43,042 nucleotides of DNA from a virus. The first letter of the stretch is position 1, and every line of letters starts with the position of its first letter. This document shows positions 25,326 to 42,024 of this stretch, piece after piece. The DNA is taken from IMG/VR virus record IMGVR_UViG_3300009413_000016, positions 1 through 43,042 of that record. One strand, given 5' to 3'. The notes below the pieces were generated by a model that was not told the DNA's origin, ran no database searches, and worked only from the letters and a program-made list of their open reading frames with translations. Made by a program: the position numbers and the translations under genes.

Positions 25326-25341
25326 TCCGCGAGGATAGTCA

Positions 25342-25371
25342 ATCCCGTCTCTTATGAGGCGGGATTTTTTT
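25342..25371 (+). terminator. intrinsic terminator
   Basis: ATCCCGTCTC-TTAT-GAGGCGGGAT (one G-U pair) followed by T7. Confidence 0.8.
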
Positions 25372-25394
25372 AGTATTCAATTTAAGGATTAATT

Positions 25395-27413: not shown

Positions 27414-27437
27414 TTTTAATTAAGTCGGAGAGTAATT

Positions 27438-27800
27438 ATGAGTGAAATTAAACACGAAGAAATGGTTGCTGTGCTAGCTAAGCCTGGTGATAAAGTAATG
27501 CAGGATTTGACGCCAAGTACTGCAGATTTGCTTCATATGGCCGTTGGTGTATCTGGTGAAGCGGGCGAGCTTTTAGACGCAGTGAAAAAAGCCGCAATTT
27601 ATGCCAAACCAATTGACCGCGAAAATGTTATCGAAGAGCTCGGTGATTTAGAGTTTTACATTGAAGGCATACGCCAAAATTTAGGTATTAGCCGCGAAGA
27701 AACGCTTCAGGCTAATATCAAAAAACTTAAGGTTCGATATGAAGGCCTTAAATACTCAAACCAAGCAGCGCAAGAGCGCGCTGACAAAGCCGGAGAATAA
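27438..27800 (+). CDS. MazG-like nucleoside triphosphate pyrophosphohydrolase
   Basis: GEAGELLDAVKK and EELGDLEFY motifs; 120 aa. Confidence 0.7.
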   Translation: MSEIKHEEMVAVLAKPGDKVMQDLTPSTADLLHMAVGVSGEAGELLDAVKKAAIYAKPIDRENVIEELGDLEFYIEGIRQNLGISREETLQANIKKLKVRYEGLKYSNQAAQERADKAGE

Positions 27801-27802
27801 TT

Positions 27803-28267
27803 ATGACCGCTAAAACCAAAGAACCAACATTTGAAGATTTACACAGCGATAAGTCCTCAGCAGAACTGATGGCTTTAATTGGTGGAACAACCGATAAACG
27901 CGAAAAAGCGACGTTGTCAAAACTTCTACGTTTCCGCCTTCGTAAAGAAGAAGAAGAAATTAAAGAAGAATTGAAGCAAGCGGCCGAAGACAGCAAAGAA
28001 GAAAAACGCCTTCTGAAGCAGACTCAAATCGACTTCATGGAAGCGCGCAAAGCTTATCTCGCATCTTATCGTGATATGAATGCTATCATTAATGGTAAAT
28101 CCATGTTGAAGCATCTGCCTGACTTCTCAGAAAAGTGCGCAGACTTTAAAGAAAAATCGGCAGCATTCTTAACTTCTATGGATGCTCATCTGTCTAACCT
28201 GGCCGCGGTTAAACGCAGCTTAAATGGCGAATCGACTGAAGACAATGCTGAGCAAACAGAAGACTGA
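27803..28267 (+). CDS. coiled-coil protein, unknown function (154 aa)
   Basis: ORF track; GGAGAA RBS; Lys/Glu-rich. Confidence 0.55.
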   Translation: MTAKTKEPTFEDLHSDKSSAELMALIGGTTDKREKATLSKLLRFRLRKEEEEIKEELKQAAEDSKEEKRLLKQTQIDFMEARKAYLASYRDMNAIINGKSMLKHLPDFSEKCADFKEKSAAFLTSMDAHLSNLAAVKRSLNGESTEDNAEQTED

Positions 28268-28544
28268 AGCTCCAGTCGAAAAGTATTGCGTAACCTCCGT
28301 GCAAAAGCGCGGAGGTCTTTGTTTAAAATTGGCCATTATAGGCAAGCGCAACTTTCCCGACCGTACGATACTTTGCAAACCCGGCAAAGTTTTTTTCATT
28401 GAATTTAAGGCCCCAAATAAAGACTTACGAAAATCACAAGCTTGGTTTAGGCGGCTTTTACTGAGATTAGGATTTACCGTATATGTCGCAAAAACAAAAG
28501 AACAAGTTGACCAAATCCTTGACAAAGAGATGGAAGCCTCGTAG
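28224..28544 (+). CDS. VRR-NUC domain nuclease
   Basis: PDR...GKVFFIEFK (D...ExK) motif. Start is uncertain (28224 or 28245). Confidence 0.7.
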   Translation: MANRLKTMLSKQKTEAPVEKYCVTSVQKRGGLCLKLAIIGKRNFPDRTILCKPGKVFFIEFKAPNKDLRKSQAWFRRLLLRLGFTVYVAKTKEQVDQILDKEMEAS

Positions 28545-29943
28545 TTATCAACAAATGTGCGTGGATGAAGGACTGAAGCGCAAATTCCTCGCTTTCTTTA
28601 TAGACCCAGGTTTAGGCAAAACCTCAATCACCCTCCAAATATTCAACAAGCGCAAATTACGTGGTCAAGTAAAAGCCATGCTTGTGGTCGCGCCATTAAA
28701 TCCGTGCTATATGACATGGGGTCCAGAAATAAAAGAATGGACCAACTTCCGTCGATTTAAATCAGTAGTTCTACACGGCCCAATGAAAGAAGCTAATCTA
28801 AAAAAACAAGCGGATATCTACATCATAAATCCTGAAGGCCTTCAATGGTTAGCTACTAAGCTAAAAGGTAAGCGCAAAGTAAACTGGCCATTTGACATGC
28901 TCGTGGTTGATGAATCAAGTAAGTTCAAAAGCGCGGACTCATCACGCTCAAAACTTATGCACAAGATGGCTCCTGCGTTTCCTTATCGGTATATACTAAA
29001 TGGTACACCTGTCGCAAATGGGTATATGGGGTTAATGAGCCAGATGAGAATAGTAGACCAAGGGCAAAGCTTAGGAGCCAAAATTACGTATTACCGCCAG
29101 AAATATTTTGAACAATATGGAAAACCAGAATGGCGCATGTTCAAACTTTCTAAAGGCGCAGATAAACGCATCATGAAAAAGATTGCACCATTTGCTGTCT
29201 GCCTAAAAGCTGAAGACCACGTAGACATGCCGAAAGTCAATATGTATCCGCGATTTATCAAACTGAATCCACGCTCCAAAAAACTTTATGACGAGATTGA
29301 AACAGAATTCTTTGCAGAAATAGATAACAAAGAATTGATAGCGGAATCCGCGTCATCACTTGCCACTAAACTCCATCAGATATGCAATGGTTCTATATAC
29401 GAAGACCAGGACCCTCTAGGTAAGCCTCTCCCTTCAAGTAAGCGGAAAATCATATCTCTACATTCTGAGAAGTTAAGTGCACTCGAGGACCTGATAGATG
29501 AGTTTAACGGTAAGCCGATTCTTATTGGATACAAGTTTCAACACGATAAAACTACGCTGAAAAACCATTTTAAGAATAAAATTAAATTCTTTGATGATGC
29601 AAAGACAGAGCAGCAGAAAGTTAAGCTTCAAAAAGATTGGAATGCAGGCAAGATAGACTTACTTGCTGGTAATCCTCAATCAGTTGGCCATGGACTTAAT
29701 CTTCAAAAAGGCGGGGCGTCGGTAATATGCATGTATTCCATCGACCATGACTATGAAATCTTCGACCAGTTCAGAAGGCGACTATATAGAAGCGGCAACT
29801 CAGCGAATTCAGTTTCGATTGCACTTCTTGTGGCAGAAGGACTGTATGACCACATGGTTATCTATCCAAACTTAGTTAAAAAGAAAGGTGTGCAAGACTC
29901 GTTTATGGACCGATTAATCGCCTATAGAAACAGCAGAAAATAA
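28483..29943 (+). CDS. SNF2-family (SF2) helicase / translocase
   Basis: DPGLGKT (motif I), VVDESSKFK (motif II), C-terminal QSVGHGLNLQ. A 62-nt overlap with the VRR-NUC gene is required to include the PRSYQ motif. Confidence 0.8.
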   Translation: MSQKQKNKLTKSLTKRWKPRSYQQMCVDEGLKRKFLAFFIDPGLGKTSITLQIFNKRKLRGQVKAMLVVAPLNPCYMTWGPEIKEWTNFRRFKSVVLHGPMKEANLKKQADIYIINPEGLQWLATKLKGKRKVNWPFDMLVVDESSKFKSADSSRSKLMHKMAPAFPYRYILNGTPVANGYMGLMSQMRIVDQGQSLGAKITYYRQKYFEQYGKPEWRMFKLSKGADKRIMKKIAPFAVCLKAEDHVDMPKVNMYPRFIKLNPRSKKLYDEIETEFFAEIDNKELIAESASSLATKLHQICNGSIYEDQDPLGKPLPSSKRKIISLHSEKLSALEDLIDEFNGKPILIGYKFQHDKTTLKNHFKNKIKFFDDAKTEQQKVKLQKDWNAGKIDLLAGNPQSVGHGLNLQKGGASVICMYSIDHDYEIFDQFRRRLYRSGNSANSVSIALLVAEGLYDHMVIYPNLVKKKGVQDSFMDRLIAYRNSRK

Positions 29944-29967
29944 TTTGCATTTATTTTTACCAAAAGT

Positions 29968-30014
29968 GTGTACTTCTACTTTGGTTATTGTATAATAGTA
30001 CCATCATCGAGCAA
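29968..30014 (+). promoter_or_regulatory. promoter P2: GTGTAC-N17-TATAAT plus conserved leader
   Basis: -35-like 29968-29973, -10 at 29991-29996. Leader AGTACCATCATCGAGCAA is identical to that of P1. Confidence 0.65.
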
Positions 30015-30043
30015 ACATACACAAACACGCTTAAGGAAATATT

Positions 30044-30331
30044 ATGGCTACTCTAACATTTGCACAAGAAAAAGCAATCGAGATTATCTCAAGTAAATTT
30101 GAAAATGTAAAAATTGCGGAAGTTTCTAAGTATGGAGCATTTGTTACTTTTGATAATGGCAAAGATAATATTTTTCTGCATCAAGCTTTTCAAGTAAAAA
30201 TTGGCAAGCGAGGTGCAATCCACTTTATCTGTGTGCATGCTTTTGACGCTGACAAAAAGCATCAAAGAGTATTAGCCAAACTTGCTGGTTATGCTCTTAA
30301 AATCCGTAAGTTCTATGTAATGCTATATTAA
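30044..30331 (+). CDS. protein of unknown function (95 aa)
   Basis: ORF track; AAGGAA RBS. Flanked by P2 and a GAGCC-TTCG(G)-GGCTC hairpin. Confidence 0.65.
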   Translation: MATLTFAQEKAIEIISSKFENVKIAEVSKYGAFVTFDNGKDNIFLHQAFQVKIGKRGAIHFICVHAFDADKKHQRVLAKLAGYALKIRKFYVMLY

Positions 30332-30335
30332 AAGC

Positions 30336-30363
30336 GAGCCTTCGGGGCTCCTCTAATTATTTT
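30336..30363 (+). terminator. hairpin GAGCC-TTCGG-GGCTC (terminator-like, weak T tract)
   Basis: Same stem-loop as at 14964 and 18316. The T run is displaced (ctctaattatttt). Confidence 0.5.
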
Positions 30364-30382
30364 CAAATAAATGCAAAAAACA

Positions 30383-30430
30383 ATGTACATTGGATAGAAA
30401 CATTGTACAATGGCTACATCATCGAGCAAA
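30383..30430 (+). promoter_or_regulatory. promoter P3: ATGTAC-N17-TACAAT plus conserved leader
   Basis: -35-like 30383-30388, -10 at 30406-30411. Leader GGCTACATCATCGAGCAA. Confidence 0.6.
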
Positions 30431-30460
30431 ACGTTATACACATATACACGAGGAAACGTC

Positions 30461-30979
30461 ATGTTAAACATCGCTAAAGTTACTGCTGAATCTATCAAAT
30501 CTCTGTCTACCAAGGAAATCGTTGAGCTGTACAACGCTACTCTTGCACAAGTCAATGCTTCTTCTGAAGCTGAACCCCGCACTCCAGTTAAGAAATTCCG
30601 TGACCGCACAACTGCAGAATCTCGCCTTCTTAAAATCAAACAAGAATGGCAAGATATCGCAGACGGTCATACTTCTGATGTTGAAGAAAAAGCTCCAGCC
30701 AAAAAGCTTGCTAAGAAAAAAATCAAAAAAGTAAAAAAATCTGAAGTTGGTAAGCCGAAAGGTTCTATCAAGAACGTAACAATTGGTTTAATCACTGAAG
30801 GCGCAGAAGATAAAGAAATCGTTGAGGAAGTTAAAGCACAATTTCCAGATTCTAAATTTGACTTCAGCCATGTATCTTGGTACCGTTCGACTCTATTCCG
30901 CGATGGTATCATAGGTCCTGAGCACGCGCCTCGCCGTTCCAAAGCGTATAAAACTTGGAAACAAAGCGAAGAAAAATAG
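30461..30979 (+). CDS. lysine-rich DNA-binding-like protein; its C-terminal domain is paralogous to the N-terminal domain of 31049-31420
   Basis: ORF track 30410-30979, trimmed to the ATG at 30461 (GAGGAA RBS). Central KAPAKKLAKKKIKKVKK. The C-terminal domain aligns by eye with the next gene. Confidence 0.65.
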   Translation: MLNIAKVTAESIKSLSTKEIVELYNATLAQVNASSEAEPRTPVKKFRDRTTAESRLLKIKQEWQDIADGHTSDVEEKAPAKKLAKKKIKKVKKSEVGKPKGSIKNVTIGLITEGAEDKEIVEEVKAQFPDSKFDFSHVSWYRSTLFRDGIIGPEHAPRRSKAYKTWKQSEEK

Positions 30980-30992
30980 TTTATTTACCTAG

Positions 30993-31018
30993 GTAGCGTG
31001 GTACTATTTCTACGCTAC
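30993..31018 (+). terminator. hairpin GTAGCGT-N12-ACGCTAC (weak terminator candidate)
   Basis: 7-bp perfect stem with a 12-nt loop, followed by attcaatttta. Confidence 0.3.
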
Positions 31019-31048
31019 ATTCAATTTTAGTAAAAAGAGGAAATTAAA

Positions 31049-31420
31049 ATGCCAGCACAAAAAGCAAAACCATCTGCCAAAAGTATCATTGAAACCGGTA
31101 TCGAAGGCGGTAAAACCGTAAAATTCATTTTAAGCCAAATTGCCAAGAAACTGCCCGATTCAAAAGCTGATGAATCTCATGTTCGTTTTTATGCGAATAA
31201 AATGGTTCGCGATGGTAAATTAGACGAAACCACGGCGCAAGAAAAATATGGATGTGGTAAGCGTGGGCGCAAACCTGCTGAAGGTAAAACAGCGGCTAAG
31301 AAAGCCCCAGCAAAATCTACTACCGCTAAAAAGGCTCCGGCAGCAAAAAAGGCTCCAGCCGCGAAAAAACCTGCGGCCAAAAAGACTACATCGAAGCGGA
31401 AAACTACTTCAGCGAAGTAA
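31049..31420 (+). CDS. histone H1-like protein (globular N-terminal domain plus AKKAPA-repeat tail)
   Basis: GAGGAA RBS. Tail reads AAKKAPAKSTTAKKAPAAKKAPAAKKPAAKKTTSKRK. Confidence 0.7.
   Translation: MPAQKAKPSAKSIIETGIEGGKTVKFILSQIAKKLPDSKADESHVRFYANKMVRDGKLDETTAQEKYGCGKRGRKPAEGKTAAKKAPAKSTTAKKAPAAKKAPAAKKPAAKKTTSKRKTTSAK
31345..31351 (+). promoter_or_regulatory. candidate -1 ribosomal slippery heptamer A_AAA_AAG, in the zero frame of 31049-31420
   Basis: Codons are GCA AAA AAG. This is the same heptamer as the E. coli dnaX frameshift site. The -1 frame is open from here to 31638. Confidence 0.35.
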
Positions 31421-31463
31421 CAGCCGGTTCTACTGTAATTGTCAAAAAAGCAATTGAAAGAGG

Positions 31464-31491
31464 CGGCGCCAAATATTTGTGCGCCGTTTTT
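31464..31491 (+). terminator. hairpin CGGCGC-N11-GCGCCG plus T5 (terminator candidate; conflicts with coding use of the orphan frame)
   Basis: 6-bp GC stem, long 11-nt loop, then TTTTT. Confidence 0.35.
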
Positions 31492-31640
31492 GTATCTGAT
31501 GAAAGTTTTACTCTAAAAAATGTAATTGTAATAAATGCCAATTTATTTCCACATGGAGTAGTAAGAACAACATCTTCACTTGATAAGTTCAGGCAACTAT
31601 TTAATAAATTAATTGATAATCATGCTTGCAGGAGAATATA

Positions 31641-32444
31641 ATGTCCGAAAGAGAATTCGACCAGACTCAGCTTAAACTGGCTCAGTTTAAATACCAACCC
31701 CATAAAGATTACCTTGGCCACATTTTTCGTTGGGGCTTTGCTTCTAAATACGTAAATAAAAATGTGGCCGTGCTCGATGTCGGATGTGGTCAAGAAATGC
31801 CATTTGCTCGCTCATTAGGCGGTTCTAATCCGAATTCAGTTCCATCTAAATACGTTGGAGTTGACTTAAATAAAATTCCAAACCCGGTTACACGCAAGAA
31901 CTTTCATGTTGAAGACGAATTCAACTTCACTAAGAAATTCCGGACGTTGAAACGTCAGCATGGCCAATTTGATGTAATTGTTAATTTCGAAGTATTTGAA
32001 CATATGACCATGGGACATGCCCGTAAACTTCTCAAAGGTATGCGTTATTTACTTGCTGAAAATGGCGTTCTTATTTTTAGCACGCCCGTGTATTGCTCTA
32101 CGTATAAGCAAGCAAATAACCACATTAACGAAGTCACTAAAAAAGAAATGGAAGATGAACTCCATAAAGCTGGCTTCAAAATCATTAAGCAATTCGGCAC
32201 ATTCGCCAATATTAATGATATCAAAAAAGTTGCTGCTAAAGACGAGCTTGAGTCGCACAAAGCTATGGCTGAATTTTACGGTAACGAAATTTTGGGTTGC
32301 TACTTAAGCCCGAAATATCCTGAAGCATCTCGCAATGTTACGCACATCTGCGTGCGTGATGACGATGGTAGAAAAGAATGTACATTAAAAGATTCTATCG
32401 TTAAATTTACAGGCGAACCATACGGAAAATCGAGGGATAAATAA
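31641..32444 (+). CDS. class I SAM-dependent methyltransferase
   Basis: ORF track start is a TTG at 31626, trimmed to the ATG at 31641 (AGGAG RBS). Motif I VLDVGCGQE, then VIVNFEVFEHM and NGVLIFSTP. Confidence 0.75.
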   Translation: MSEREFDQTQLKLAQFKYQPHKDYLGHIFRWGFASKYVNKNVAVLDVGCGQEMPFARSLGGSNPNSVPSKYVGVDLNKIPNPVTRKNFHVEDEFNFTKKFRTLKRQHGQFDVIVNFEVFEHMTMGHARKLLKGMRYLLAENGVLIFSTPVYCSTYKQANNHINEVTKKEMEDELHKAGFKIIKQFGTFANINDIKKVAAKDELESHKAMAEFYGNEILGCYLSPKYPEASRNVTHICVRDDDGRKECTLKDSIVKFTGEPYGKSRDK

Positions 32445-33421
32445 TGTTTAATTTAGTAAAAAAGATGGTAACTGAGCTTCAAGGCCATCCGGCTCCAGAA
32501 AAGCCAATTGCTCTTAGTAATGACGAATACGAGTTTCGGCTCATTGCCTTTGAAGAAGAAATCAATGAATACTCGGATGGGCATGTTACTGACAATTTAG
32601 AAGAACAACTTGATGCTCTTGTAGATTTAGTTGTCTTCGCTATGGGAGCTGCGGCAATTCAAGGTTTCGACTTTGAAGCAGCTTTCAAACGCGTAATGAA
32701 TGCTAACTTGGATAAACGAGTTGGCATAACCAAACGCGGTCATGCTAATGACCTGATGAAGCCGGCTTATTGGCGCGCTCCGTATCTCGGTGATTTGATT
32801 GACAAGCAGACTGAGAAAAAAGGCATCATCATTCTTGAAGGCCCAGACGGTGCAGGTAAAACTACGTTGGCCGAGTTCCTTAAAAAAGAATATGGCGCTT
32901 ATGTGATGCATTCTACGTGGTCTCCAGAGCTTGAAGCTGATATGGAAAAATACATGGAAATCACTACGCGTATGGCTCTGGAAATTTCGCAGAATCAACT
33001 TGTGGTTCTTGACAGACATTGGCTAAGCGAGTTGGTCTATTCTGATGTATTTCGTGGCGGTCATAACCGCACGGGTATGTATTTTGAAAGCCATAAAGCT
33101 CTTATTGGCGGAATTCATACTAAGAATAAGCTCGTAATATGCTTGCCAGATGTAGAAAAAGCTAAATTACATTTTGCGCGTTTAAAAGAGCAGCGCGAAG
33201 AAATGTATAGTAATATAAACGGCGTTATTCATGCGTACGGCGCAATATGCGATAATTCATGTTCTCATCATTTTAAAAACGAAAATGAAGAATATCTGCA
33301 AATGTGCCTAAATGGAGGTTTAACTCGCCGCCCAGACCGATGCATCCGCTATAATTGGATGGAGCAAGGCCACGACATGAAACAATTCTGCGAAACATAT
33401 TTATTTGGAGATAATCAATGA
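32444..33421 (+). CDS. fusion protein: all-alpha MazG-like NTP pyrophosphohydrolase domain (N-terminal) plus thymidylate-kinase-like P-loop kinase (C-terminal)
   Basis: N-terminal EEINEY...EEQLDALVDLVVFAMG...RVMNANLDKR. C-terminal ILEGPDGAGKTTLAEFL and VVLDRHWLSELVY. TAATG overlap upstream and ATGA overlap downstream. Confidence 0.7.
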   Translation: MFNLVKKMVTELQGHPAPEKPIALSNDEYEFRLIAFEEEINEYSDGHVTDNLEEQLDALVDLVVFAMGAAAIQGFDFEAAFKRVMNANLDKRVGITKRGHANDLMKPAYWRAPYLGDLIDKQTEKKGIIILEGPDGAGKTTLAEFLKKEYGAYVMHSTWSPELEADMEKYMEITTRMALEISQNQLVVLDRHWLSELVYSDVFRGGHNRTGMYFESHKALIGGIHTKNKLVICLPDVEKAKLHFARLKEQREEMYSNINGVIHAYGAICDNSCSHHFKNENEEYLQMCLNGGLTRRPDRCIRYNWMEQGHDMKQFCETYLFGDNQ

Positions 33422-34239
33422 TTCGTTTTCAACGTACTACCACAGATACCTGGCTGAGTCTTCTAGATAGTATTATGACTCATGGCCGAAAAGTCAGTCC
33501 ACGGGGTCAAGATACTTTGGAAATGATTAGTTGCACTTCTGAAGTGGATATGAATACTCCAATCGTTTCAAGCTTCGTAAGAAATATTAATACCAAGTTT
33601 TTATTTGGTGAAGCATGGTGGATTCTGTCCGGCAGTAATCGCGTATCTGACATCACTCCTTATCTTAAAAACATTGCCCAGTTTAGCGATGACGGTATTA
33701 CATTTAATGGCGCTTACGGCCCTAAGGTTATTGACCAACTACCTTATGCGCTAAAATGCCTCGTTGATGATGAATGTAGCCGCCAAGCGGTTATTAGTAT
33801 CTGGCGCGAGAAACCGGCTCCGTCCAAAGATATTCCATGCACATTGTCACTGCAGTTCTTTATCAGAGATGGTAAACTCCACACTCAAGCGAACATGCGT
33901 TCTTCTGACGCATGGTTAGGTTGGGTTTATGACGTGTTCAACTTTTCTATGATTTCAGCTTGGTTAGCGATTGCACTTCGCAGGCATGAAAAATATAAAG
34001 CGTTGACCTTAGGCGAACTTTATTTAACCGCTGGCTCTCAGCATCTTTATATGCGAAATAAAGATAAAGCCGTTGAAGCACTCGACATCATTTTTGAAAA
34101 TCATGTAGACGTCAATCCAATTAAACTGTCATGGTATACTCATCCTGAAGAGCTAGTTACAGACTTACGTCTTGCGGCGAATGACACTCCAGGTTCTCGG
34201 ATTATTTCTATGGTTGAAAATATGCGGAGTCCAAAATAA
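33418..34239 (+). CDS. thymidylate synthase homologue, predicted deoxycytidylate C5-hydroxymethylase (or methylase)
   Basis: Catalytic Cys in IPCTLSLQFFIRDGKL. NMRSSDAWLGWVYDVFNF has Asp where ThyA has Asn177 (RSCDVFLGLPFNIASY). GSQHLY motif present. Confidence 0.7.
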   Translation: MIRFQRTTTDTWLSLLDSIMTHGRKVSPRGQDTLEMISCTSEVDMNTPIVSSFVRNINTKFLFGEAWWILSGSNRVSDITPYLKNIAQFSDDGITFNGAYGPKVIDQLPYALKCLVDDECSRQAVISIWREKPAPSKDIPCTLSLQFFIRDGKLHTQANMRSSDAWLGWVYDVFNFSMISAWLAIALRRHEKYKALTLGELYLTAGSQHLYMRNKDKAVEALDIIFENHVDVNPIKLSWYTHPEELVTDLRLAANDTPGSRIISMVENMRSPK

Positions 34240-34673
34240 TGCGTAAATCCAAGCTTCAATATTTTATTGACTTGGCGAAACTTGTGTCTTCTAGAGCCTC
34301 GTGTTCTAGAAGACAAGTGGGTTGCGTTTTAGTTGATGAACATGACCATGTACTTTCTACTGGATACAATGGTCCACCTAAAGGTATTCCTAATTGCACC
34401 GATAAGCCTTGCGCAGGAGCCCATCTTCCATCAGGTCAAGGGCTAGACGTTTGCCAAGCGGTACACGCGGAGATGAATGCGGTTATCCAATGTAAAGACG
34501 TGCACGCTATTACCAAAGCATACGTAACTACAGCGCCGTGTTTGCATTGCCTGAAAGTTTTGGCTAATACCTCTTGCCAAGAGATTTTATTCGTTGATGA
34601 TTACCCAGGAAGCGAGCGGTCAAAAGATATGTGGGAAATGATAGGCAGAAAATGGACGCGAGTTATACAATAA
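34239..34673 (+). CDS. dCMP deaminase
   Basis: Zinc motifs HAEMNAV and PCLHCLK; TAATG overlap with the upstream gene. Confidence 0.85.
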   Translation: MRKSKLQYFIDLAKLVSSRASCSRRQVGCVLVDEHDHVLSTGYNGPPKGIPNCTDKPCAGAHLPSGQGLDVCQAVHAEMNAVIQCKDVHAITKAYVTTAPCLHCLKVLANTSCQEILFVDDYPGSERSKDMWEMIGRKWTRVIQ

Positions 34674-34761: not shown

Positions 34762-35274
34762 CTATTTATCCCACCGACCGATTATCTTGTCAAATTGCTT
34801 ACTAGTTCTTGCCGCAAAATACCATCCTACCGCCGTAGCGGTTAATCCCGTGACAGATAGCACCACGACTCGGTACAAATCCAAAACTTCAGATGGCGGC
34901 AATACTTCTAAACCTCCAGTGATTTCTTCAAGCGAACTTAAAATTCGATAAGTTTGGTAAAACAGGATAATCAGTACCAGCGGTCTGACGCAAGACTTGA
35001 CGTATTCCGAAAAATCCGTTTTTGACTTCTGGCTTTCCGTAAACGCTTTTGTTTCTTCCTTTTCAATGTCAAGTTCTCCGGCTACACGAGTTTCCTCGAT
35101 TTTAGCTTCTGATAATCGAATCTGAGAGTCAGTAGTAGCTTCGAGCATATCCACTTTATGGTTAAACTTCATCTGCATATTGGCCCTTTCTTCGCGTTTA
35201 GTGAGGTATCCGAAGACACCTCCAAGCAAAGAGCCAAAACCCGCAGAGCCCAAAATATCAAGGATTATATCCAT
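34762..35274 (-). CDS. holin candidate (three predicted transmembrane segments)
   Basis: 170 aa. An N-terminal hydrophobic helix, a charged coiled middle and two C-terminal helices. GGAGGA RBS. Lies immediately after the endolysin gene. Confidence 0.6.
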   Translation of the reverse strand: MDIILDILGSAGFGSLLGGVFGYLTKREERANMQMKFNHKVDMLEATTDSQIRLSEAKIEETRVAGELDIEKEETKAFTESQKSKTDFSEYVKSCVRPLVLIILFYQTYRILSSLEEITGGLEVLPPSEVLDLYRVVVLSVTGLTATAVGWYFAARTSKQFDKIIGRWDK

Positions 35275-35277
35275 GAT

Positions 35278-35697
35278 TTAATCCTCCAGTTGAATATGCG
35301 GGCAATCCCAACCATATTCAATGCCCTCTACTTTTTTACCGTTGCGGTTGCTCCATAAGCCGCCCCACGATATTCGATAGCCTAGCTGGCTTGCAGCCTG
35401 TAAAAATGCGCACGCAACCATTGCTAGATGTGGCTCATGCCAACTTGCCTGCCCATCTACATACGCATAGAAATCTAAAGCTTTACCAGTTTGGTGATAT
35501 GATTTGCGATTATAACCGTCTAAATCGCTTTTACCTTCCTGATATAACTCATTTTGCAATTCAGCAGAGCGGTTGCCCGCGTACCGACCATGGCCAAAGT
35601 CTACACGTGTAATTTGTATGGCCAGGTCACTAATTTCGATAAGGCGCGAATCTACACCTTCTCGATTTTGCTTTGAGTTTTGTGATAGTTTGTACAT
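35278..35697 (-). CDS. endolysin, M15-family L-alanyl-D-glutamate peptidase (VanY-like)
   Basis: SYHQTGKALD (SxHxxGxAxD) and C-terminal WDCPH motifs; 139 aa. Confidence 0.75.
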   Translation of the reverse strand: MYKLSQNSKQNREGVDSRLIEISDLAIQITRVDFGHGRYAGNRSAELQNELYQEGKSDLDGYNRKSYHQTGKALDFYAYVDGQASWHEPHLAMVACAFLQAASQLGYRISWGGLWSNRNGKKVEGIEYGWDCPHIQLED

Positions 35698-35796
35698 ATT
35701 TACCTCTTAAAATATTAGCGGCGCCATTACTGCGCCACCCGCGGGAGACTAATCGGGTACAGCCACTCAGTTAGTATGCTGGTAAAGCCCATAAAA

Positions 35797-37830
35797 TCAA
35801 TATCCGTTAACAACTAAATAAAATCCAGTATCTATTAACGCGTTAGACAGGTCACGAGTCTGCACAGTGACCGTCGTCCCGCTGGACGTCGCATACCCAA
35901 TAGTTCCCGACCCTTTAAACGTAACGGCAGGCACAAGTATGGACGCGTTCGTATCGAGCTCAACTTCGACGACACCTTGTGCGGTCCGATTTACCGATAC
36001 TATCGCGACGCCTGAGCTAAGCGTCGCAGTGCCGTTATTATTTACATTCGCATACGCAATGGTCTGCAGCAAAAACCCTGAATCGTTAACGAGATTTGCG
36101 GGCGATAGAGACTCGTCGACGTCACCGATAAAGCTATTCGACGTGCCTAACTTACACCCGAAGCCAGGGTCCGGCGCAACGTTCGCAATTGCGACCATTG
36201 TAGCACCTATCGATGAGGACTGCCTGAATATATTGTCGTCAATATTCGCGTACTGAGTCGCGGCGGCGAGGTTAACGCCGTAGCACACACCTTTCGTCGT
36301 CTCGCGGGTATTTGCGAAAATGTTATCTTTTACGTTTGCGTTAAAAACGCTGCTTTGAAAGTGCACGCACCTACCTAACGAGTCAGTTATCGTGTTACCT
36401 AATATATTCAGCCGGTCTATAAAACTAGGCACTATGCCGCCGTCTTTAGAGTCTAGGCCAAAGCCCTCTATATAGTTACCTTCGACTGTTATATCTTCGC
36501 CGATGTTTTCTAAAGTAGCGTCGTGCGCAAACACCGCGATACCTGCGCGGTGCAGTTCGGTGTTAGACGGCCCCGCCAGTATAACGTTGCCTTTAATAAG
36601 CAGTCTGCGCGGCGGCGCGTAACCGTCAGCAGCAGTGTAGCCGCCTTTATCAATTCCCACCCCGATATGAGCATTAAAGATTACGTTATCGACAAAAGAA
36701 ATATCAGTCCCACCGTGCGTGTCCAGCGCCTTCCAGTTTGCACAGTTGTTTACGATGTTACGCGCGATTATGCCGCGCCGCGTAGGACGGTAATCGTCAA
36801 CGCTGCCGTCGCCTGCGGTGCTGTGGTATATGCGCGTTGCTGTAATCCCGTAAACGTTGTTGTTAGGCGCAATGCCCTCGCCAGGGAACCCGTCAGTCAT
36901 GTCCTCGACGAAGTTTTCGGACACATCAAAATCAATACATCCATACATGCGTATGCCGTCACGCGTGCAGTTTGTGATGTGATTACCCTTCGCCCTGAAC
37001 TCTGTTATGTTGTCGGCAATAATGCCGGACTGACCGAACCCGGATATTCTACAATTAAGTATTTCAATATTCGTGTTTAGGCTTGTTGGTGTAACGTCGG
37101 GTGACGCAGGGTAGTTGCCGTTATCATAGAAGTACTCGTCATAGCGACCTTCTACCGCAATGCCTATTGACCGATAAACAGGCGACGTCGAACCGCCGTA
37201 AAACGGTCCGCGAATATCAAGGCCTTTAATCCTTACATTGTCCGCGTTTTTAAGTATTTTTAAACCGGCGTACTCCGTACCCGTCGAAATGGTCGCGGCG
37301 TTGTCAAAGTCTTCCTGTAAAATAACCGAACCGCTCTCGCCGTAAATACGTTTATTGCTTGGTACTTCGGGCGCGGAGACGACTTTATACACTCCTTTGG
37401 GAATAAGTACATTGTCATGTGCGTTGATAGCCGCCTGTATCGCGGCACTGTCGTCTGTAACCCCGTCACCAACGGCGCCAAATAATTGAGGCGTAGCAAA
37501 CGGGCCGACGCGCCTCCATGGATAACCACTTAAAGGGTTGTTACCGCTATTGTCGTCTTCCATTGAAACATAAAGGTCACCAGATATATTAACAATCGAA
37601 CCAATATAATAGTCTTCATCGGGGTTGTATTCGGCTACCCCTTTTTGCGCCAGATAAGCTAGGCCACGAGTAAAATGACGCTGCAAATAGTTAAAGTTTT
37701 GATAAGTTGGAACTTCAGCGACCCAGCCTGCGTCAAATTTACCCGGGGTAGTTACATCTGGGTCTTCAACATTTGCGACTGGAGCGCCTGACGCCCATAT
37801 TCTTTCTAAGTCTGGTCTTTCAATTAGCAT
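35797..37830 (-). CDS. tailspike / receptor-binding protein with a pectate-lyase-like right-handed beta-helix (probable polysaccharide depolymerase)
   Basis: 677 aa. FGAVGDGVTDDSAAIQAAI motif and repeated N..I.N/G beta-helix rungs. Last structural gene after the baseplate. Confidence 0.75.
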   Translation of the reverse strand: MLIERPDLERIWASGAPVANVEDPDVTTPGKFDAGWVAEVPTYQNFNYLQRHFTRGLAYLAQKGVAEYNPDEDYYIGSIVNISGDLYVSMEDDNSGNNPLSGYPWRRVGPFATPQLFGAVGDGVTDDSAAIQAAINAHDNVLIPKGVYKVVSAPEVPSNKRIYGESGSVILQEDFDNAATISTGTEYAGLKILKNADNVRIKGLDIRGPFYGGSTSPVYRSIGIAVEGRYDEYFYDNGNYPASPDVTPTSLNTNIEILNCRISGFGQSGIIADNITEFRAKGNHITNCTRDGIRMYGCIDFDVSENFVEDMTDGFPGEGIAPNNNVYGITATRIYHSTAGDGSVDDYRPTRRGIIARNIVNNCANWKALDTHGGTDISFVDNVIFNAHIGVGIDKGGYTAADGYAPPRRLLIKGNVILAGPSNTELHRAGIAVFAHDATLENIGEDITVEGNYIEGFGLDSKDGGIVPSFIDRLNILGNTITDSLGRCVHFQSSVFNANVKDNIFANTRETTKGVCYGVNLAAATQYANIDDNIFRQSSSIGATMVAIANVAPDPGFGCKLGTSNSFIGDVDESLSPANLVNDSGFLLQTIAYANVNNNGTATLSSGVAIVSVNRTAQGVVEVELDTNASILVPAVTFKGSGTIGYATSSGTTVTVQTRDLSNALIDTGFYLVVNGY

Positions 37831-37841
37831 AATTTTGCCTT

Positions 37842-38543
37842 TTATAGTAATTCACCAAAATACCCGCCTATATCAGGGGATGTTGTACTTCCAAAACCTT
37901 TTGAATTTAAAACTCCTTTGAATCCAAAAAATCTATTATAATCATATGAAGCTTTATAGTTAACCGATACTCCTGCTGTTTTGGAAATAATATCTGTATT
38001 ATTTAGCAGAGAAATATCATTTCTATTTAACTTTTTACCAATTGAAATAGTATATTCAGTATCGCCATCTTCAAATATAACTTGAGGCGCATCAAATAAA
38101 TACTGGTATTGCGCAATAATATCTTCTGGCGTAGATTTTGATATATTTTTTATAATTCTTGCTTTAATAAATAAACGGTATTCATCGTCTGTTAATCTCC
38201 TGTTACCCGTTAAAATAGTATCAAGCGAAGCAAAAGGAGAACCTAAAGAAGCATTATTTATATCACCAAACGAGTCAGAACTAGGATGACCTAAAAAACC
38301 AAAATAAGTAAATATATTACCTTCAATAATAACTCTAGATTGGCCTACGATTGCTCCAAGAATATCTAGCTGATATCCTTCGGCAGTTTCAATCCATCGC
38401 TCATTTAATAAATCTTGAAAAACTTGTTCTAAATTTTCTGACTCTGATAAAAAATTAGAGATGTACGCTATAAGATTAGGAGATTCTTTAAACTGAGTTA
38501 CTAGCCTAGATAACGCTTTTTCTATGTGATTTACAGTTTGCAT
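37842..38543 (-). CDS. baseplate wedge / tail-fibre adaptor protein (Mu gp48 / P2 gpI position)
   Basis: 233 aa, directly after the gpJ-like gene. Assigned by position. Confidence 0.5.
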   Translation of the reverse strand: MQTVNHIEKALSRLVTQFKESPNLIAYISNFLSESENLEQVFQDLLNERWIETAEGYQLDILGAIVGQSRVIIEGNIFTYFGFLGHPSSDSFGDINNASLGSPFASLDTILTGNRRLTDDEYRLFIKARIIKNISKSTPEDIIAQYQYLFDAPQVIFEDGDTEYTISIGKKLNRNDISLLNNTDIISKTAGVSVNYKASYDYNRFFGFKGVLNSKGFGSTTSPDIGGYFGELL

Positions 38544-38545
38544 CG

Positions 38546-39712
38546 CTAAATCACCTCAATATTATCGACTAAGAAATTAGAAATTTCGCCAATATCGATT
38601 ATAATGTTTGATTGAGAAGTAGGAACGGGTGAAATGCTTATGTATAGTTCATCAATCTGATGGCCTACAATGCTGTTAATTGGAGTATAAAGCTCAGAAA
38701 ATATAACGTCATCTCCTAATCCAAATCCGCGCCCATTTACTAAATCTCCATTGGCGTAATCGACAATAGCTTGTTTAATTAAGTCATCGCCGTTAGCGGG
38801 ATAATTAGAGAATTTAGTAAGCTGAACTTGAACATAAATATCTATGGTATCAGGTCTAGAAAAATTAATCGTATGAAGCAAACCTTGTGAGTCAGAAATT
38901 ACTACGGATTCGTCTCCAAAAGAGGTTATACCCGCTGGTTTATTCAGCCATATTGCATTAGCTATATCTTCATCTAACCCACCTACTACAATTACTTGAA
39001 CCGAGTGTGGGGGCAATCCATTTGCGTCAATTATATCTGTGTCATTCTCAAGTACTGTTACTTGCGTAACAAATTCTAAGTTTGAAATTACCGCGTAAAG
39101 AGAATCTACAGTAGATTGCGCGCTGATAGCTAATGAGCGCAGGCGTCTTGCTCTAAGTTCTACGTCCGTTTCACGCTCAGAACCCACGTTTGCGTCTTCA
39201 ATATTAGTAACAGCGTTTAGCCCAGTAATTGGTGTTTCTATTTCCGTAAGAGTTCCAGCCGACGCCTCTATAACGCCAGTATTTAGTGCCGTTGCTGTTA
39301 CGTTGATAGAACCACCCGAGATAGTAACAGCGCTATCGGTAGCAAATTGCTCTTGCGAAGTGACATGGCTTACTAATGTTCCAGCGGGTATTGATGTTCC
39401 ATCGGTACCTGTGAAGGTTAAAGTGGCTACAGAGCTTGAAGCTTCATTTCGCGTTATTCCATTAATCTGCACAAGGTTACTAAGTGCTGCTCCTGTAGCC
39501 GCAGATGGATTAAAAGCGTTATATGCCCCTTCAGCAATTTCCCATAAATCACTAAAAGAACCAGCAAGTAAACCTATAATTTGCCCGTCAGGAGATTCAG
39601 GAGAAACATTAAGATTATTACCATATACAGAGCGAAATAGCGTTTCTAAGTCTGATTTGATTTCGTCAAGACGTTTTCTTTTAAAACCTGTTAATGTGAT
39701 TCCACTAGACAT
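38546..39712 (-). CDS. baseplate J-like protein
   Basis: 388 aa. Position and sequence resemble P2 gpJ / Mu gp47 (recollection). Confidence 0.7.
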   Translation of the reverse strand: MSSGITLTGFKRKRLDEIKSDLETLFRSVYGNNLNVSPESPDGQIIGLLAGSFSDLWEIAEGAYNAFNPSAATGAALSNLVQINGITRNEASSSVATLTFTGTDGTSIPAGTLVSHVTSQEQFATDSAVTISGGSINVTATALNTGVIEASAGTLTEIETPITGLNAVTNIEDANVGSERETDVELRARRLRSLAISAQSTVDSLYAVISNLEFVTQVTVLENDTDIIDANGLPPHSVQVIVVGGLDEDIANAIWLNKPAGITSFGDESVVISDSQGLLHTINFSRPDTIDIYVQVQLTKFSNYPANGDDLIKQAIVDYANGDLVNGRGFGLGDDVIFSELYTPINSIVGHQIDELYISISPVPTSQSNIIIDIGEISNFLVDNIEVI

Positions 39713-40067
39713 TTACGTATATCTCCTCTTGGTCTAATACGCCAAAATCAGTAGTGGCAGAAAAAGCAACTGTCAATATCCGCGTATTTCTATTTAATGA
39801 TAATTCGAATTCGGTCAATTCGGTAACGCCTGGAGTAGAGCGTATTCTGTTTTTAATTAACGTTTCTACTCGGCTTAAATCCACCGGTCTAACAAAAACC
39901 TCGTCAAACCACGGTGTGCCTGAATTAGTATTTAAAAACCATTCGCGTATATAAAACAATAATCGAGTACGAATATGCTGCGCTACTTCTTCGCCTTCAT
40001 TTACTGTTGCAAAAGAGCCATTAACAAGAACTAAATCATTATTTTTATCTAAAGCTTTGCTTATCAT
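39705..40067 (-). CDS. baseplate wedge protein (gp25 / gpW-like)
   Basis: 120 aa, between the spike and gpJ-like genes. Confidence 0.55.
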   Translation of the reverse strand: MISKALDKNNDLVLVNGSFATVNEGEEVAQHIRTRLLFYIREWFLNTNSGTPWFDEVFVRPVDLSRVETLIKNRIRSTPGVTELTEFELSLNRNTRILTVAFSATTDFGVLDQEEIYVNV

Positions 40068-40849
40068 TGCGGGCCTCCAGTTAATGGGTCGCCATGCGAA
40101 TGTACATGCGAATTACCACTTATACCGTTGCTGTCATGGTCTGCTGCTGAGCTTGTTCCTGTAATATCGATGTTACCATCCACAGAAGCATTAGACTGCA
40201 TAGTTGTTGTTCCAGCTATCGTCGCGTTACCAAGTACGCTTACATCACCTGTAAACTCTGCCAGCGGAGTATCTACGGTGACTTTCGTGGGCGCGGTTAT
40301 TTTAACCTCTTTGCCTTCATTAAGCATCTCTATGACAACCGTTCCAGTGGTCACATTTATGTCTTTATTGGCAAACATCGTAATTGTTTGGTCTTTTTCA
40401 TAATTACGTATTTGCAGGTTTTCAGTATCGTAGTCTGTAACTACTTTAGGTTCAGAACTCATTCCAACTAAGCATATTGCATCAGAAAGAGAATGCATGC
40501 GGTAATTATCAGGTGCTTTGGATTGGCCAGATTTATACCAACCATCGATTGACCTTTCTGAGAATAAAACTAAGCATTCATCATCTACCGCTATAGGAAA
40601 TGTTATACAGAAATTTCCGGCTTTTGGTTGCCATACTACTACATTTATGACTGGCGGAAGGTCAACAGCTGTGTTACCTTTAAAAATTCGCTTTACTAAA
40701 AGCTGAACTGTAGCAATTTGCTTTTCAGCATTAAATTCTACTATTTTACCAGGTAGACACGTATGCACGTTTTTCATGTAATTGGTTATGCCTTGCTTAA
40801 TTAAGCCCGGTAATCCGCCTGTTGATTCATTCGTTCTTTTATCAAGCAC
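40064..40849 (-). CDS. baseplate central spike protein (gpV / Gp138-like)
   Basis: 261 aa. N-terminal OB-like region, then a repetitive beta-helix (VTVDT, VSVLGN, ATIAGT). His-rich apex HVHSHGD. Confidence 0.65.
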   Translation of the reverse strand: MLDKRTNESTGGLPGLIKQGITNYMKNVHTCLPGKIVEFNAEKQIATVQLLVKRIFKGNTAVDLPPVINVVVWQPKAGNFCITFPIAVDDECLVLFSERSIDGWYKSGQSKAPDNYRMHSLSDAICLVGMSSEPKVVTDYDTENLQIRNYEKDQTITMFANKDINVTTGTVVIEMLNEGKEVKITAPTKVTVDTPLAEFTGDVSVLGNATIAGTTTMQSNASVDGNIDITGTSSAADHDSNGISGNSHVHSHGDPLTGGPQ

Positions 40850-42021: not shown

Positions 42022-42024
42022 GGT

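What the first reader, a model, noticed from the sequence alone, without database searches (positions are those of the whole stretch)
33418..34239. Thymidylate synthase homologue carries Asp at the Asn177 base-specificity position
The segment NMRSSDAWLGWVYDVFNF aligns by eye with E. coli ThyA QRSCDVFLGLPFNIASY. It also aligns with my recollection of T4 gp42 (NMRSNDVVFGFRNDYAW). Asp replaces the Asn that hydrogen-bonds uracil. In established TS and dCMP-hydroxymethylase biochemistry this Asn/Asp switch sets dUMP versus dCMP specificity. The catalytic Cys (IPCTLSLQFFIRDGKL) and the GSQHLY motif are intact, so the enzyme should be active. The sequence alone cannot tell whether it hydroxymethylates (T4-like) or methylates (XP12-like).
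Basis: partly seen in the sequence, partly recalled or inferred. Interest (0 to 1): 0.7.

Follow-up and report, generated by a model that had tools for sequence, protein, structure and literature searches.

The report
Phage dCMP hydroxymethylase in nucleotide-modification operon
This phage gene is a thymidylate-synthase relative re-tooled to modify cytosine rather than uracil nucleotides, most likely making 5-hydroxymethyl-dCMP for restriction-resistant phage DNA; this enzyme type is well known, but an uncharacterised methyltransferase next to it is not explained.

Summary
ORF 33418-34239 (+, 273 aa) is a thymidylate-synthase-fold protein with Asp172 at the E. coli ThyA Asn177 position. The catalytic Cys141, Glu65, Tyr100, Arg161, His209 and Tyr211 are intact. 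All 120 closest database homologues and 79 IMG/VR relatives also carry this Asp.

Published diagnostic residues now allow a lean. The protein has Asp138 at ThyA Leu143, Thr at His147 and Asp at Asp169. That is the T4 gp42 and MilA hydroxymethylase signature. The XP12/PaMx74 dCMP-methylase signature is Asn143/Pro147, and the 5-hydroxy-dCMP synthase signature is Asn169. Its closest solved relative is the CMP hydroxymethylase MilA, but it carries the Ser/Arg pair that specifies deoxyribonucleotides.

The gene sits in a translationally coupled operon: SAM methyltransferase, MazG pyrophosphatase fused to a dNMP kinase, the TS homologue, then dCMP deaminase. The cultured phage AXL3 has the same cassette, and its DNA resists 35 of 37 restriction enzymes, all with G/C in their sites.

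Verdict: a new member of a known kind, probably a dCMP hydroxymethylase. The product is unproven. The conserved methyltransferase is the one open lead.

The parts
33418..34239 (+). Thymidylate-synthase-fold pyrimidine C5-modifying enzyme, predicted dCMP 5-hydroxymethylase (273 aa)
   Evidence: The ORF is. It matches PF00303 at 5e-18. The best solved relative is MilA at E 3.6e-25, or 1.6e-39 with a family profile. The AF2 model has pLDDT 93.9, and its top Foldseek hit is MilA at TMq 0.77. NCBIfam TS equivalog scores of 31-51 bits fall far below the cut-offs of 108-405.
33931..33933 (+). Codon GAC for Asp172, the equivalent of E. coli ThyA Asn177 (base-specificity position)
   Evidence: Alignments are, and the codon is. 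The Asp is invariant in 120/120 and 79/79 relatives.
33829..33840 (+). Asp138-Ile-Pro-Cys141. Cys141 is the catalytic nucleophile (ThyA C146). Asp138 is at Cys-3 (ThyA L143), the position that correlates with hydroxymethyl versus methyl products.
   Evidence: Residue at Cys-3: Asp in the query, T4 gp42, MilA and SPO1 gp29; Leu in EcThyA; Asn in XP12 and PaMx74. It is Asp in 120/120 homologues. The rule comes from PMC13326640.
33898..33909 (+). Arg161-Ser162-Ser163-Asp164, equivalent to ThyA R166-S167-C168-D169. Ser162 marks deoxyribose preference. Asp164 excludes the D169N 5-hydroxy-dCMP synthase class.
   Evidence: Positions are. The MilA A176/K133 versus Ser/Arg rule is from PMC5175136. The D169N rule is from PMC13326640.
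32444..33421 (+). Fusion protein: an N-terminal MazG/PRA-PH-type NTP pyrophosphohydrolase (about residues 1-122, predicted dCTPase) joined to a C-terminal P-loop dNMP kinase (about residues 123-325). Its stop overlaps the TS start (ATGA).
   Evidence: Pfam hits are PRA-PH at 5e-7 and Thymidylate_kin at 2e-6. PHROG hits are thymidylate kinase at 5e-19 and nucleotide pyrophosphohydrolase at 2e-18. PDB hits are the DR2231 MazG-like protein and the YorR kinase-like protein. The two domains are separate genes in AXL3 and MW202510. A kinase lies next to the TS in 74/80 IMG/VR loci.
34239..34673 (+). dCMP deaminase (144 aa). Its start overlaps the TS stop (TAATG).
   Evidence: It matches PF00383 at 2.5e-19 and phrog_174 at 1.4e-35. 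PDB relatives are the dCMP deaminases 2hvv, T4 cd 1vq2 and human 2w4l.
31626..32444 (+). Class I SAM-dependent methyltransferase of unknown substrate, the first gene of the cassette. The real start is probably a few codons downstream, because close relatives are called at 267 aa.
   Evidence: It matches Methyltransf_23 at 2e-16. The AF2 model has pLDDT 91.5 and a generic small-molecule MTase fold with no close analogue. It is conserved next to this TS clade in AXL3, PW916, both Manatee Spring phages and 42/80 IMG/VR loci, and even at 40% identity.

Best explanation
The ORF encodes a dCMP-specific member of the thymidylate synthase / pyrimidine hydroxymethylase superfamily.

The proposed chemistry is as follows. 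Cys141 attacks C6 of dCMP. Asp172 hydrogen-bonds and protonates N3/N4 of cytosine, where ThyA uses Asn177 to read uracil. The methylene group of 5,10-methylene-THF is transferred to C5. The exocyclic methylene intermediate is then captured by water, helped by Asp138 at the ThyA Leu143 position, instead of being reduced by hydride from folate. The product is 5-hydroxymethyl-dCMP plus THF.

The neighbouring genes complete a T4-like pre-replicative pathway. The MazG domain turns dCTP into dCMP, which removes the canonical competitor and supplies substrate. The fused kinase phosphorylates the modified dNMP. The dCMP deaminase diverts part of the dCMP pool to dUMP for host dTMP synthesis. The phage polymerase then builds DNA in which C is replaced by 5hmC. 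The conserved SAM methyltransferase may modify this base further.

Shown here: the fold, the residue identities, the operon structure and the conservation. Inferred: substrate, product and pathway order. No enzyme of this clade has been assayed.
For: - **Asp at N177.** Asp172 sits at the N177 position and is invariant in the family.
- **Full signature.** D143/C146/T147/S167/D169/D177 is identical to the signature of T4 gp42 and MilA. SPO1 gp29, a dUMP hydroxymethylase, shares D143. The 5mC-forming XP12 and PaMx74 enzymes have N143/P147, and ThyA has L143/H147. The rule is stated in PMC13326640.
- **Similarity.** BLAST bit scores are MilA 114, SPO1 gp29 89, EcThyA 63, XP12 57. The family profile hits MilA at 1.6e-39 and TS at 1e-19 or worse. 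The top Foldseek hit is MilA.
- **Sugar specificity.** Ser162 and Arg122 are the deoxyribose-specifying pair. MilA has Ala and Lys there.
- **Loss of TS features.** ThyA W80, H147 and R127, which bona fide TS and the XP12 enzyme retain partly or wholly, are lost.
- **Dedicated kinase.** A dNMP kinase is adjacent in 74/80 related loci and is fused to MazG here. T4 likewise needs gp1 for hm-dCMP.
- **No DHFR.** None is found in the window. XP12 and PaMx74 place a DHFR next to their methylase.
- **AXL3.** This phage has the same cassette, with the TS 51% identical by BLASTP. It also encodes ThyX, which would be redundant if the TS homologue plus deaminase could make dTMP via 5mdCMP. Its DNA resists all 35 tested enzymes with G/C in their sites, including KpnI and Eam1105I. 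Those two enzymes partly cut the presumed-5mC phage AXL1.
Against: - No member of this clade has been assayed.
- The L143 rule is a correlation over a handful of characterised enzymes. XP12 shows that methyl-forming enzymes need not have Leu there.
- The MazG-TS-deaminase synteny is shared with XP12. XP12's 'HAD hydrolase' is 38% identical to the window's MazG domain.
- In the NEB screen, 5 of 7 tested deaminase-linked Asp177 enzymes made 5mdCMP.
- The window has no ThyA or ThyX of its own. That would also fit dTMP supply by deamination of 5-methyl-dCMP/dCTP.
- Similarity to T4 gp42 itself is weak: 27% identity, 42 bits.
- HMMER and a large MAFFT run shift the L143 column by one residue. The Asp138/L143 equivalence therefore rests on the ungapped alignment to MilA plus the published statement that MilA's Asp at Cys-3 is the L143 homologue.
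Confidence: 0.62

Rival explanations
1. XP12-type dCMP methyltransferase. The enzyme reduces the exocyclic methylene with folate hydride and makes 5-methyl-dCMP plus DHF. The adjacent deaminase converts part of the 5-methyl-dC nucleotide pool to thymidine nucleotides, so the phage needs no separate thymidylate synthase. The DNA then carries 5mC in place of C.
For: - It has Asp at N177, like XP12.
- The gene order MazG-like, TS, deaminase is the same as in XP12 and PaMx74.
- In bioRxiv 2024.12.05.627091, 5 of 7 tested deaminase-linked Asp177 homologues made 5mdCMP, and their deaminases prefer 5mC.
- The window encodes no ThyA, ThyX or other route to dTMP.
Against: - The signature differs from XP12 and PaMx74 at the product-linked positions: D versus N at 143, T versus P at 147, Q versus T at 151.
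- The XP12 enzyme is much closer to real TS (101 bits to EcThyA) than the query is (63 bits). The query is closer to hydroxymethylases.
- There is no DHFR in the window.
- A dedicated kinase is nearly always adjacent and is absent from the XP12 cassette.
- AXL3 keeps a ThyX, and its DNA resists KpnI and Eam1105I, which partly cut presumed-5mC AXL1 DNA.
Confidence: 0.2
2. The enzyme makes a C5 product other than hydroxymethyl or methyl. One possibility is 5-hydroxy-dCMP, as in RB69 and DLP3. Another is that the hydroxymethyl product is only a transient intermediate, which the cassette's SAM methyltransferase converts to an undescribed methylated nucleotide.
For: - TS homologues with D177 and an acidic residue at 143 can make 5-hydroxy-dCMP.
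- A small-molecule-type SAM MTase is tightly and widely linked to this TS clade. It is more conserved than the TS and is once fused to the deaminase.
- The AXL3 modification is chemically unidentified.
Against: - The diagnostic D169N of 5-hydroxy-dCMP synthases is absent: Asp in 120/120 homologues.
- 24-25 of the 80 related loci, the pelagiphage type, have only kinase plus TS with the identical signature. The TS product is therefore usable without the MTase.
- No glycosyltransferase or other tailoring gene was found near the cassette.
Confidence: 0.12
3. Ordinary thymidylate synthase, as database annotations say. Together with the deaminase and a 'thymidylate kinase' it would form a dCMP to dUMP to dTMP to dTDP salvage block.
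For: Relatives are annotated 'thymidylate synthase' in GenBank and JGI, and the AXL3 paper interprets the block this way.
Against: - Asp replaces Asn177 without exception.
- H147, W80 and R127 are lost.
- Scores are 3- to 9-fold below every NCBIfam TS equivalog cut-off.
- AXL3 carries a separate ThyX and has restriction-resistant DNA.
Confidence: 0.03

Closest known systems
MilA, CMP 5-hydroxymethylase of Streptomyces rimofaciens (mildiomycin pathway; PDB 5b6d, 5jp9)
   Same: - Closest solved relative: 36% identity, E 3.6e-25, Foldseek TMq 0.77.
- Same Asp at the N177 position, Asp at the L143 position and Thr at the H147 position.
- Same loss of W80.
   Different: - MilA has Ala176 and Lys133, which give a ribonucleotide (CMP) preference. 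The query has Ser162 and Arg122, the deoxyribonucleotide pair.
- MilA serves antibiotic biosynthesis in a bacterium. This gene sits in a phage DNA-precursor operon.
T4 gp42 dCMP hydroxymethylase, with gp56 dCTPase, gp1 dNMP kinase and cd dCMP deaminase
   Same: - Same predicted reaction and same active-site signature (D143/C146/T147/S167/D169/D177).
- Same pathway logic: dCTPase, kinase and deaminase.
   Different: - Only 27% identity and 42 bits, so it is a separate clade and not a gp42 orthologue.
- Here the dCTPase and kinase are one fused protein and all genes form one overlapping operon. In T4 they are scattered.
- No glucosyltransferase is found. A SAM MTase is present instead.
Xanthomonas phage XP12 / Pseudomonas phage PaMx74 dCMP methyltransferase cassette (5mC DNA)
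   Same: - Asp at N177.
- MazG-like gene, TS homologue and dCMP-family deaminase in the same order.
   Different: - The XP12 type has Asn143, Pro147 and Thr151, and keeps R127 and a TS-like core.
- It is followed by DHFR and has no adjacent kinase or SAM MTase.
- It shares only 30% identity over 149 residues with the query.
Stenotrophomonas phage AXL3 gp27-gp31, Pseudoxanthomonas phage PW916, and pelagiphages HTVC119P and HTVC200P
   Same: - These are true family members at 51-56% identity by BLASTP, or 50-58% by tblastn.
- AXL3 and PW916 have the full MTase, NTP-PPase, kinase, TS, deaminase cassette.
- AXL3 DNA resists 35/37 restriction enzymes.
   Different: - MazG and kinase are separate genes in AXL3.
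- AXL3 also has ThyX.
- The pelagiphage HTVC119P lacks an annotated MazG, MTase or deaminase beside its TS; the related IMG/VR loci of that type carry only kinase plus TS.
- None has had its DNA chemistry or enzyme product determined.
SPO1 gp29 dUMP hydroxymethylase
   Same: 30% identity and 89 bits. It shares Asp at L143, the SRQAV motif (Q at R127) and the FSDDG loop.
   Different: SPO1 gp29 has Asn at the 177 position, so it acts on dUMP and makes 5hmU. It also carries a long C-terminal extension.

Membership tests
Thymidylate synthase / pyrimidine hydroxymethylase superfamily (PF00303, cd00351) | TS fold and significant profile match | tested here: met
   PF00303 at 5e-18, 65.6 bits against a cut-off of 24.3. 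AF2 pLDDT 93.9. Foldseek to E. coli TS gives rmsd 2.0 over 227 columns.
Thymidylate synthase / pyrimidine hydroxymethylase superfamily (PF00303, cd00351) | Catalytic Cys (C146), together with E58, Y94, R21, R126', R166, D169, H207 and Y209 | tested here: met
   C141, E65, Y100, R29, R122, R161, D164, H209 and Y211 are all present and nearly invariant in the family.
Canonical thymidylate synthase ThyA (dUMP to dTMP) | Asn at position 177, which reads uracil O4/N3 | tested here: not met
   Asp172 in the query. Asp in 120/120 and 79/79 relatives.
Canonical thymidylate synthase ThyA (dUMP to dTMP) | Score above curated equivalog cut-offs, and the residues L143, H147, W80 and R127 | tested here: not met
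   NCBIfam scores are 31-51 bits against cut-offs of 108-405. The query has D138, T142, no Trp at the W80 position, and Q123.
dCMP hydroxymethylase functional class (T4 gp42-like, 5hmdCMP synthase) | Asp at N177 (cytosine specificity) | tested here: met
dCMP hydroxymethylase functional class (T4 gp42-like, 5hmdCMP synthase) | Acidic residue at L143 (Cys-3), the position correlated with water capture | tested here: met
   Asp138, the same as T4 gp42, MilA and SPO1 gp29, and Asp in 120/120 homologues. The equivalence depends on the ungapped alignment. HMMER and a large MAFFT run shift the column by one.
dCMP hydroxymethylase functional class (T4 gp42-like, 5hmdCMP synthase) | Deoxyribose-specifying Ser167 and Arg126' | tested here: met
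   S162 and R122. The rule is from PMC5175136.
dCMP hydroxymethylase functional class (T4 gp42-like, 5hmdCMP synthase) | Product is 5-hydroxymethyl-dCMP, with THF and not DHF released | not testable with these tools
   This needs an enzyme assay or LC-MS.
dCMP hydroxymethylase functional class (T4 gp42-like, 5hmdCMP synthase) | Orthology to T4 gp42 | tested here: not met
   27% identity and 42 bits, weaker than to MilA, SPO1 gp29 or EcThyA. It is a functional analogue from a different clade.
XP12-type dCMP methyltransferase (5mdCMP synthase) | Asp177 together with the XP12/PaMx74 active-site pattern (N143, P147, T151, R127) and a linked DHFR | tested here: not met
   Asp177 is met. The other positions are D, T, Q and Q. 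No DHFR is found in the window.
5-hydroxy-dCMP synthase (RB69 gp48 / DLP3 gp80 type) | Asn at D169 (D169N) | tested here: not met
   Asp164 in the query. Asp in 120/120 homologues. The rule is from PMC13326640.
MilA/BcmA-type CMP (ribonucleotide) hydroxymethylase | Ala at S167 and Lys at R126' | tested here: not met
   The query has Ser162 and Arg122.

The most novel reading that the evidence does not exclude
The class I SAM methyltransferase that travels with this TS clade may act on the hydroxymethylated cytosine nucleotide or on 5hmC in DNA. That would give a cytosine derivative not yet described in any virus, for example 5-methoxymethylcytosine or an N-methylated 5hmC. The evidence is linkage only. 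The MTase keeps its place in the cassette down to 40% identity, is more conserved than the TS itself, is once fused to the deaminase, and has a small-molecule MTase fold. Such a derivative could account for the unidentified G/C-site restriction resistance of phage AXL3.
Probability: 0.2. Interest if true: 0.75.

Novelty: new member of a known kind. Interest (0 to 1): 0.33.

Why it matters
The gene is labelled 'thymidylate synthase' throughout public databases. The AXL3 and PW916 papers both read the block as a dTMP salvage pathway, which is almost certainly wrong. Re-reading it as a dCMP hydroxymethylase operon predicts that this uncultured 43-kb phage, and hundreds of relatives in soil, freshwater and marine viromes including pelagiphages, carry fully substituted cytosine.

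This has three consequences:
- It affects sequencing and library preparation.
- It affects restriction and CRISPR evasion.
- It affects the use of AXL3-like phages in therapy.

The enzyme class itself is already well known, and Asp177 is used routinely to mine such genes. The TS finding therefore adds a member, not a principle. The piece that could yield new chemistry is the conserved, uncharacterised SAM methyltransferase in the cassette. Two cultured phages, AXL3 and PW916, make it directly testable.

Tried and rejected
- **Nucleotide search.** Megablast of the cassette against 50,697 phage records found nothing. The phage has no close cultured relative.
- **Methyltransferase function.** I tried to assign one by PDB sequence search with a single sequence (no hits) and with a profile (UbiG, PKMT2, Hen1 and cap-MTase level only). 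I also tried NCBIfam (all far below cut-off) and Foldseek against PDB and BFVD (TM about 0.5 to many unrelated small-molecule MTases; the only good hit is an unannotated phage protein). None gave a substrate.
- **Literature.** Searches for methoxymethyl-cytosine, for SAM-dependent steps in phage cytosine hypermodification, and for PW916 DNA chemistry found nothing relevant.
- **Tailoring genes.** I looked for glycosyltransferases or other tailoring genes among the small ORFs of the replication module. Only a second small MazG turned up.
- **Other dTMP routes.** tblastn for ThyX, DHFR, a second ThyA or a T4 beta-glucosyltransferase in the window found none.
- **Rejected: 5-hydroxy-dCMP synthase.** D169 is Asp.
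- **Rejected: ribonucleotide hydroxymethylase.** The Ser/Arg pair is present.
- **Rejected: canonical TS.** Asp177 is present and scores are sub-threshold.
- **Alignment caveat.** The large MAFFT alignment and HMMER shift the L143 column by one residue. I therefore scored the residue at Cys-3 directly. This matches how PMC13326640 assigns MilA and T4.
Full report
**Observation.** It contains the quoted peptides. It matches Pfam Thymidylat_synt at E 5e-18 and four PHROG 'thymidylate synthase' families.

HMMER alignments to solved thymidylate synthases are ungapped from RSSD (ThyA R166-D169) to VYD (P175-F176-N177). A MAFFT alignment with authentic reference proteins gives the same register. I fetched those references from public records: E. 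coli ThyA, T4 gp42, XP12 and PaMx74 TS homologues, SPO1 gp29 and the MilA sequence.

Asp172 (GAC, 33931-33933) is therefore the Asn177 equivalent, aligned with T4 gp42 Asp179 and MilA Asp186. The Asp is invariant in the 120 closest proteins of a 5.8-billion-protein search and in 79 of 79 scorable IMG/VR relatives. It is a fixed family character and not a chance substitution. The catalytic Cys141 and the equivalents of E58, Y94, R21, R126, R166, S167, D169, H207 and Y209 are all present.

**What the protein is.** It is not a real thymidylate synthase. NCBIfam TS equivalog models score 31-51 bits against cut-offs of 108-405. It also lacks H147 (Thr), W80 and R127 (Gln).

Its nearest solved relative is the CMP 5-hydroxymethylase MilA:
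- E 3.6e-25 with the single sequence, and 1.6e-39 with a profile of 35 family members. Thymidylate synthases follow at 1e-19 or worse.
- An AlphaFold model (pLDDT 93.9) has MilA as its best Foldseek match at TMq 0.77. TS structures follow at about 0.69.
- BLAST bit scores rank MilA 114, SPO1 gp29 (dUMP hydroxymethylase) 89, EcThyA 63, XP12 57 and T4 gp42 42.

Recent work gives diagnostic positions (PMC13326640; PMC8670742):
- N177: Asp indicates a cytosine substrate.
- L143: a bulky or non-acidic residue goes with a methyl product, and Asp or Glu goes with a hydroxymethyl product.
- D169: Asn indicates a 5-hydroxy-dCMP synthase.
- H147 also differs between classes.

I scored the residue three positions before the catalytic Cys directly.

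| Enzyme or group | Residue at Cys-3 (ThyA L143) |
|---|---|
| Query | Asp |
| All 120 closest homologues | Asp |
| T4 gp42 | Asp |
| MilA | Asp |
| SPO1 gp29 | Asp |
| E. coli ThyA | Leu |
| XP12 and PaMx74 (5mC-forming) | Asn |

The query's full signature D143/C146/T147/S167/D169/D177 equals that of T4 gp42 and MilA. XP12 and PaMx74 are N/C/P/S/D/D. Asp at D169 excludes the 5-hydroxy class. Ser162 and Arg122 are the pair that, in the MilA study, specify deoxyribonucleotides; MilA has Ala and Lys there.

One caveat applies. HMMER and a large MAFFT run shift the L143 column by one residue. The equivalence rests on the ungapped alignment to MilA plus the published assignment for MilA and T4.

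**Context.** The gene is the third of four overlapping, co-directional genes:
- A class I SAM methyltransferase at 31626-32444 (Methyltransf_23).
- A fusion of a MazG/PRA-PH NTP pyrophosphohydrolase with a P-loop dNMP kinase at 32444-33421.
- The TS homologue.
- A dCMP deaminase at 34239-34673.

The junctions are ATGA and TAATG overlaps. The cassette lies at the end of a replication module with primase-helicase, DUF2800 nuclease, Enc34-type SSB, family A polymerase and SNF2 helicase.

The same cassette, with MazG and kinase either fused or separate, occurs in:
- Stenotrophomonas phage AXL3.
- Pseudoxanthomonas phage PW916.
- Two Manatee Spring phages.
- Several metagenomic contigs.

The 80 IMG/VR loci divide as follows:
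- 33 have all five functions.
- 24 have only kinase plus TS. Pelagiphage HTVC119P, which has no annotated MazG, MTase or deaminase beside its TS, is of this type.
- 8 have MazG-kinase-TS-deaminase without the methyltransferase.
- A kinase is adjacent in 74 of the 80.

The TS signature is the same in all architectures.

**Mechanism proposed.** This is a T4-like pre-replicative pathway. MazG hydrolyses dCTP to dCMP. The TS homologue converts dCMP to 5hm-dCMP using CH2-THF and water. The fused kinase phosphorylates the product. The deaminase feeds dUMP to the host TS.

Several observations support hydroxymethyl over methyl:
- The near-obligatory dedicated kinase.
- The absence of a DHFR, whereas XP12 and PaMx74 place one beside their methylase.
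- The separate ThyX in AXL3.
- AXL3 DNA resists all 35 tested enzymes whose sites contain G/C and is cut only by TasI and Tru1I. The resistant set includes KpnI and Eam1105I, which partly cut the presumed-5mC phage AXL1 in the same laboratory's panel.

Other observations favour the methylase rival:
- The MazG-TS-deaminase synteny is shared with XP12. XP12's 'HAD hydrolase' is in fact 38% identical to the window's MazG domain.
- The window has no ThyA or ThyX of its own.
- In the NEB screen, 5 of 7 tested deaminase-linked Asp177 enzymes made 5mdCMP.

No member of this clade has been assayed. My estimates are:
- About 0.9 that the enzyme is dCMP-specific.
- About 0.62 for the whole hydroxymethylase statement.
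- About 0.2 for the methylase.

**Novelty.** Asp177 TS homologues linked to MazG and dCMP deaminase are already documented as the domains most strongly associated with modified-cytosine viral contigs. Asp177 is used routinely to mine them. The TS finding is therefore a new member of a known kind. Its practical value is mainly to correct the annotation, since the AXL3 and PW916 papers interpret the block as dTMP synthesis.

**The unexplained part.** The SAM methyltransferase is the open question.
- It accompanies this TS clade even when only about 40% identical.
- It is more conserved than the TS on the same contigs: 65-78% identity against 50-56%.
- It occurs once as a deaminase-methyltransferase fusion, on a single 2.2-kb contig.
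- Its confident AF2 model (pLDDT 91.5) has a generic small-molecule MTase fold with no close analogue.
- No paper addressing it was found.
- It is dispensable for the TS, because kinase-TS-only phages exist.

It may tailor the 5hm-cytosine nucleotide or 5hmC in DNA, which would be new chemistry. I put this at about 0.2.

Noticed in passing
window 31626-32444 (+): A class I SAM methyltransferase of unknown substrate is the first gene of the cassette. It is tied to the D143/D177 TS clade across divergent phages and is more conserved than the TS on the same contigs. One relative, P0183 (469 aa, L098), is a deaminase-MTase fusion.
   Followed up: partly
window 32444-33421 (+): The MazG-type NTP pyrophosphohydrolase and the dNMP kinase are fused into one 325-aa protein here and in several relatives (L009, L015-L020). 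They are separate genes in AXL3, MW202510 and many IMG/VR loci. This Rosetta-stone link joins dCTP hydrolysis to phosphorylation of the modified dNMP.
   Followed up: partly
L004 (Xanthomonas phage XP12, MT664984) 46207-46980 (-): The XP12 gene annotated 'hydrolase (HAD superfamily)', just upstream of its dCMP methylase, is 38% identical over 101 residues to the window's MazG domain. It is probably a MazG-like dCTPase and is mis-annotated.
   Followed up: partly
window 27438-27800 (+): A second, small (120 aa) stand-alone MazG-domain protein (PF03819, E 2e-6) lies just downstream of the DNA polymerase gene. Its role relative to the MazG-kinase fusion is unknown.
   Followed up: no
L008 (Pelagibacter phage HTVC119P) 5469-6753; IMG/VR loci L025-L032 and others: T7-like pelagiphages, some with an integrase, carry only a small kinase plus the same D143/D177 TS homologue, with no MazG, MTase or deaminase nearby. 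This implies that abundant marine podoviruses may have modified cytosine. In GenBank the kinase gene is annotated as hypothetical.
   Followed up: partly
window 1-14313 and 34762-43042 (- strand) versus 15020-34673 (+ strand): The genome has two divergent arms. Structural and lysis genes are on the minus strand, with baseplate and sheath-type neighbours in relatives. Replication and nucleotide genes are on the plus strand, and the GC and AT skew flips near 15-16 kb. A 97%-identical TS occurs on contigs up to 43.6 kb, so the window is probably a near-complete phage genome.
   Followed up: no
window 30410-30979 and 31049-31420 (+): Two conserved ORFs of unknown function (189 and 123 aa, no Pfam hits) lie directly upstream of the methyltransferase. 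They are also present upstream of it in the 97%-identical relatives (L096, L097). They could belong to the modification module.
   Followed up: no
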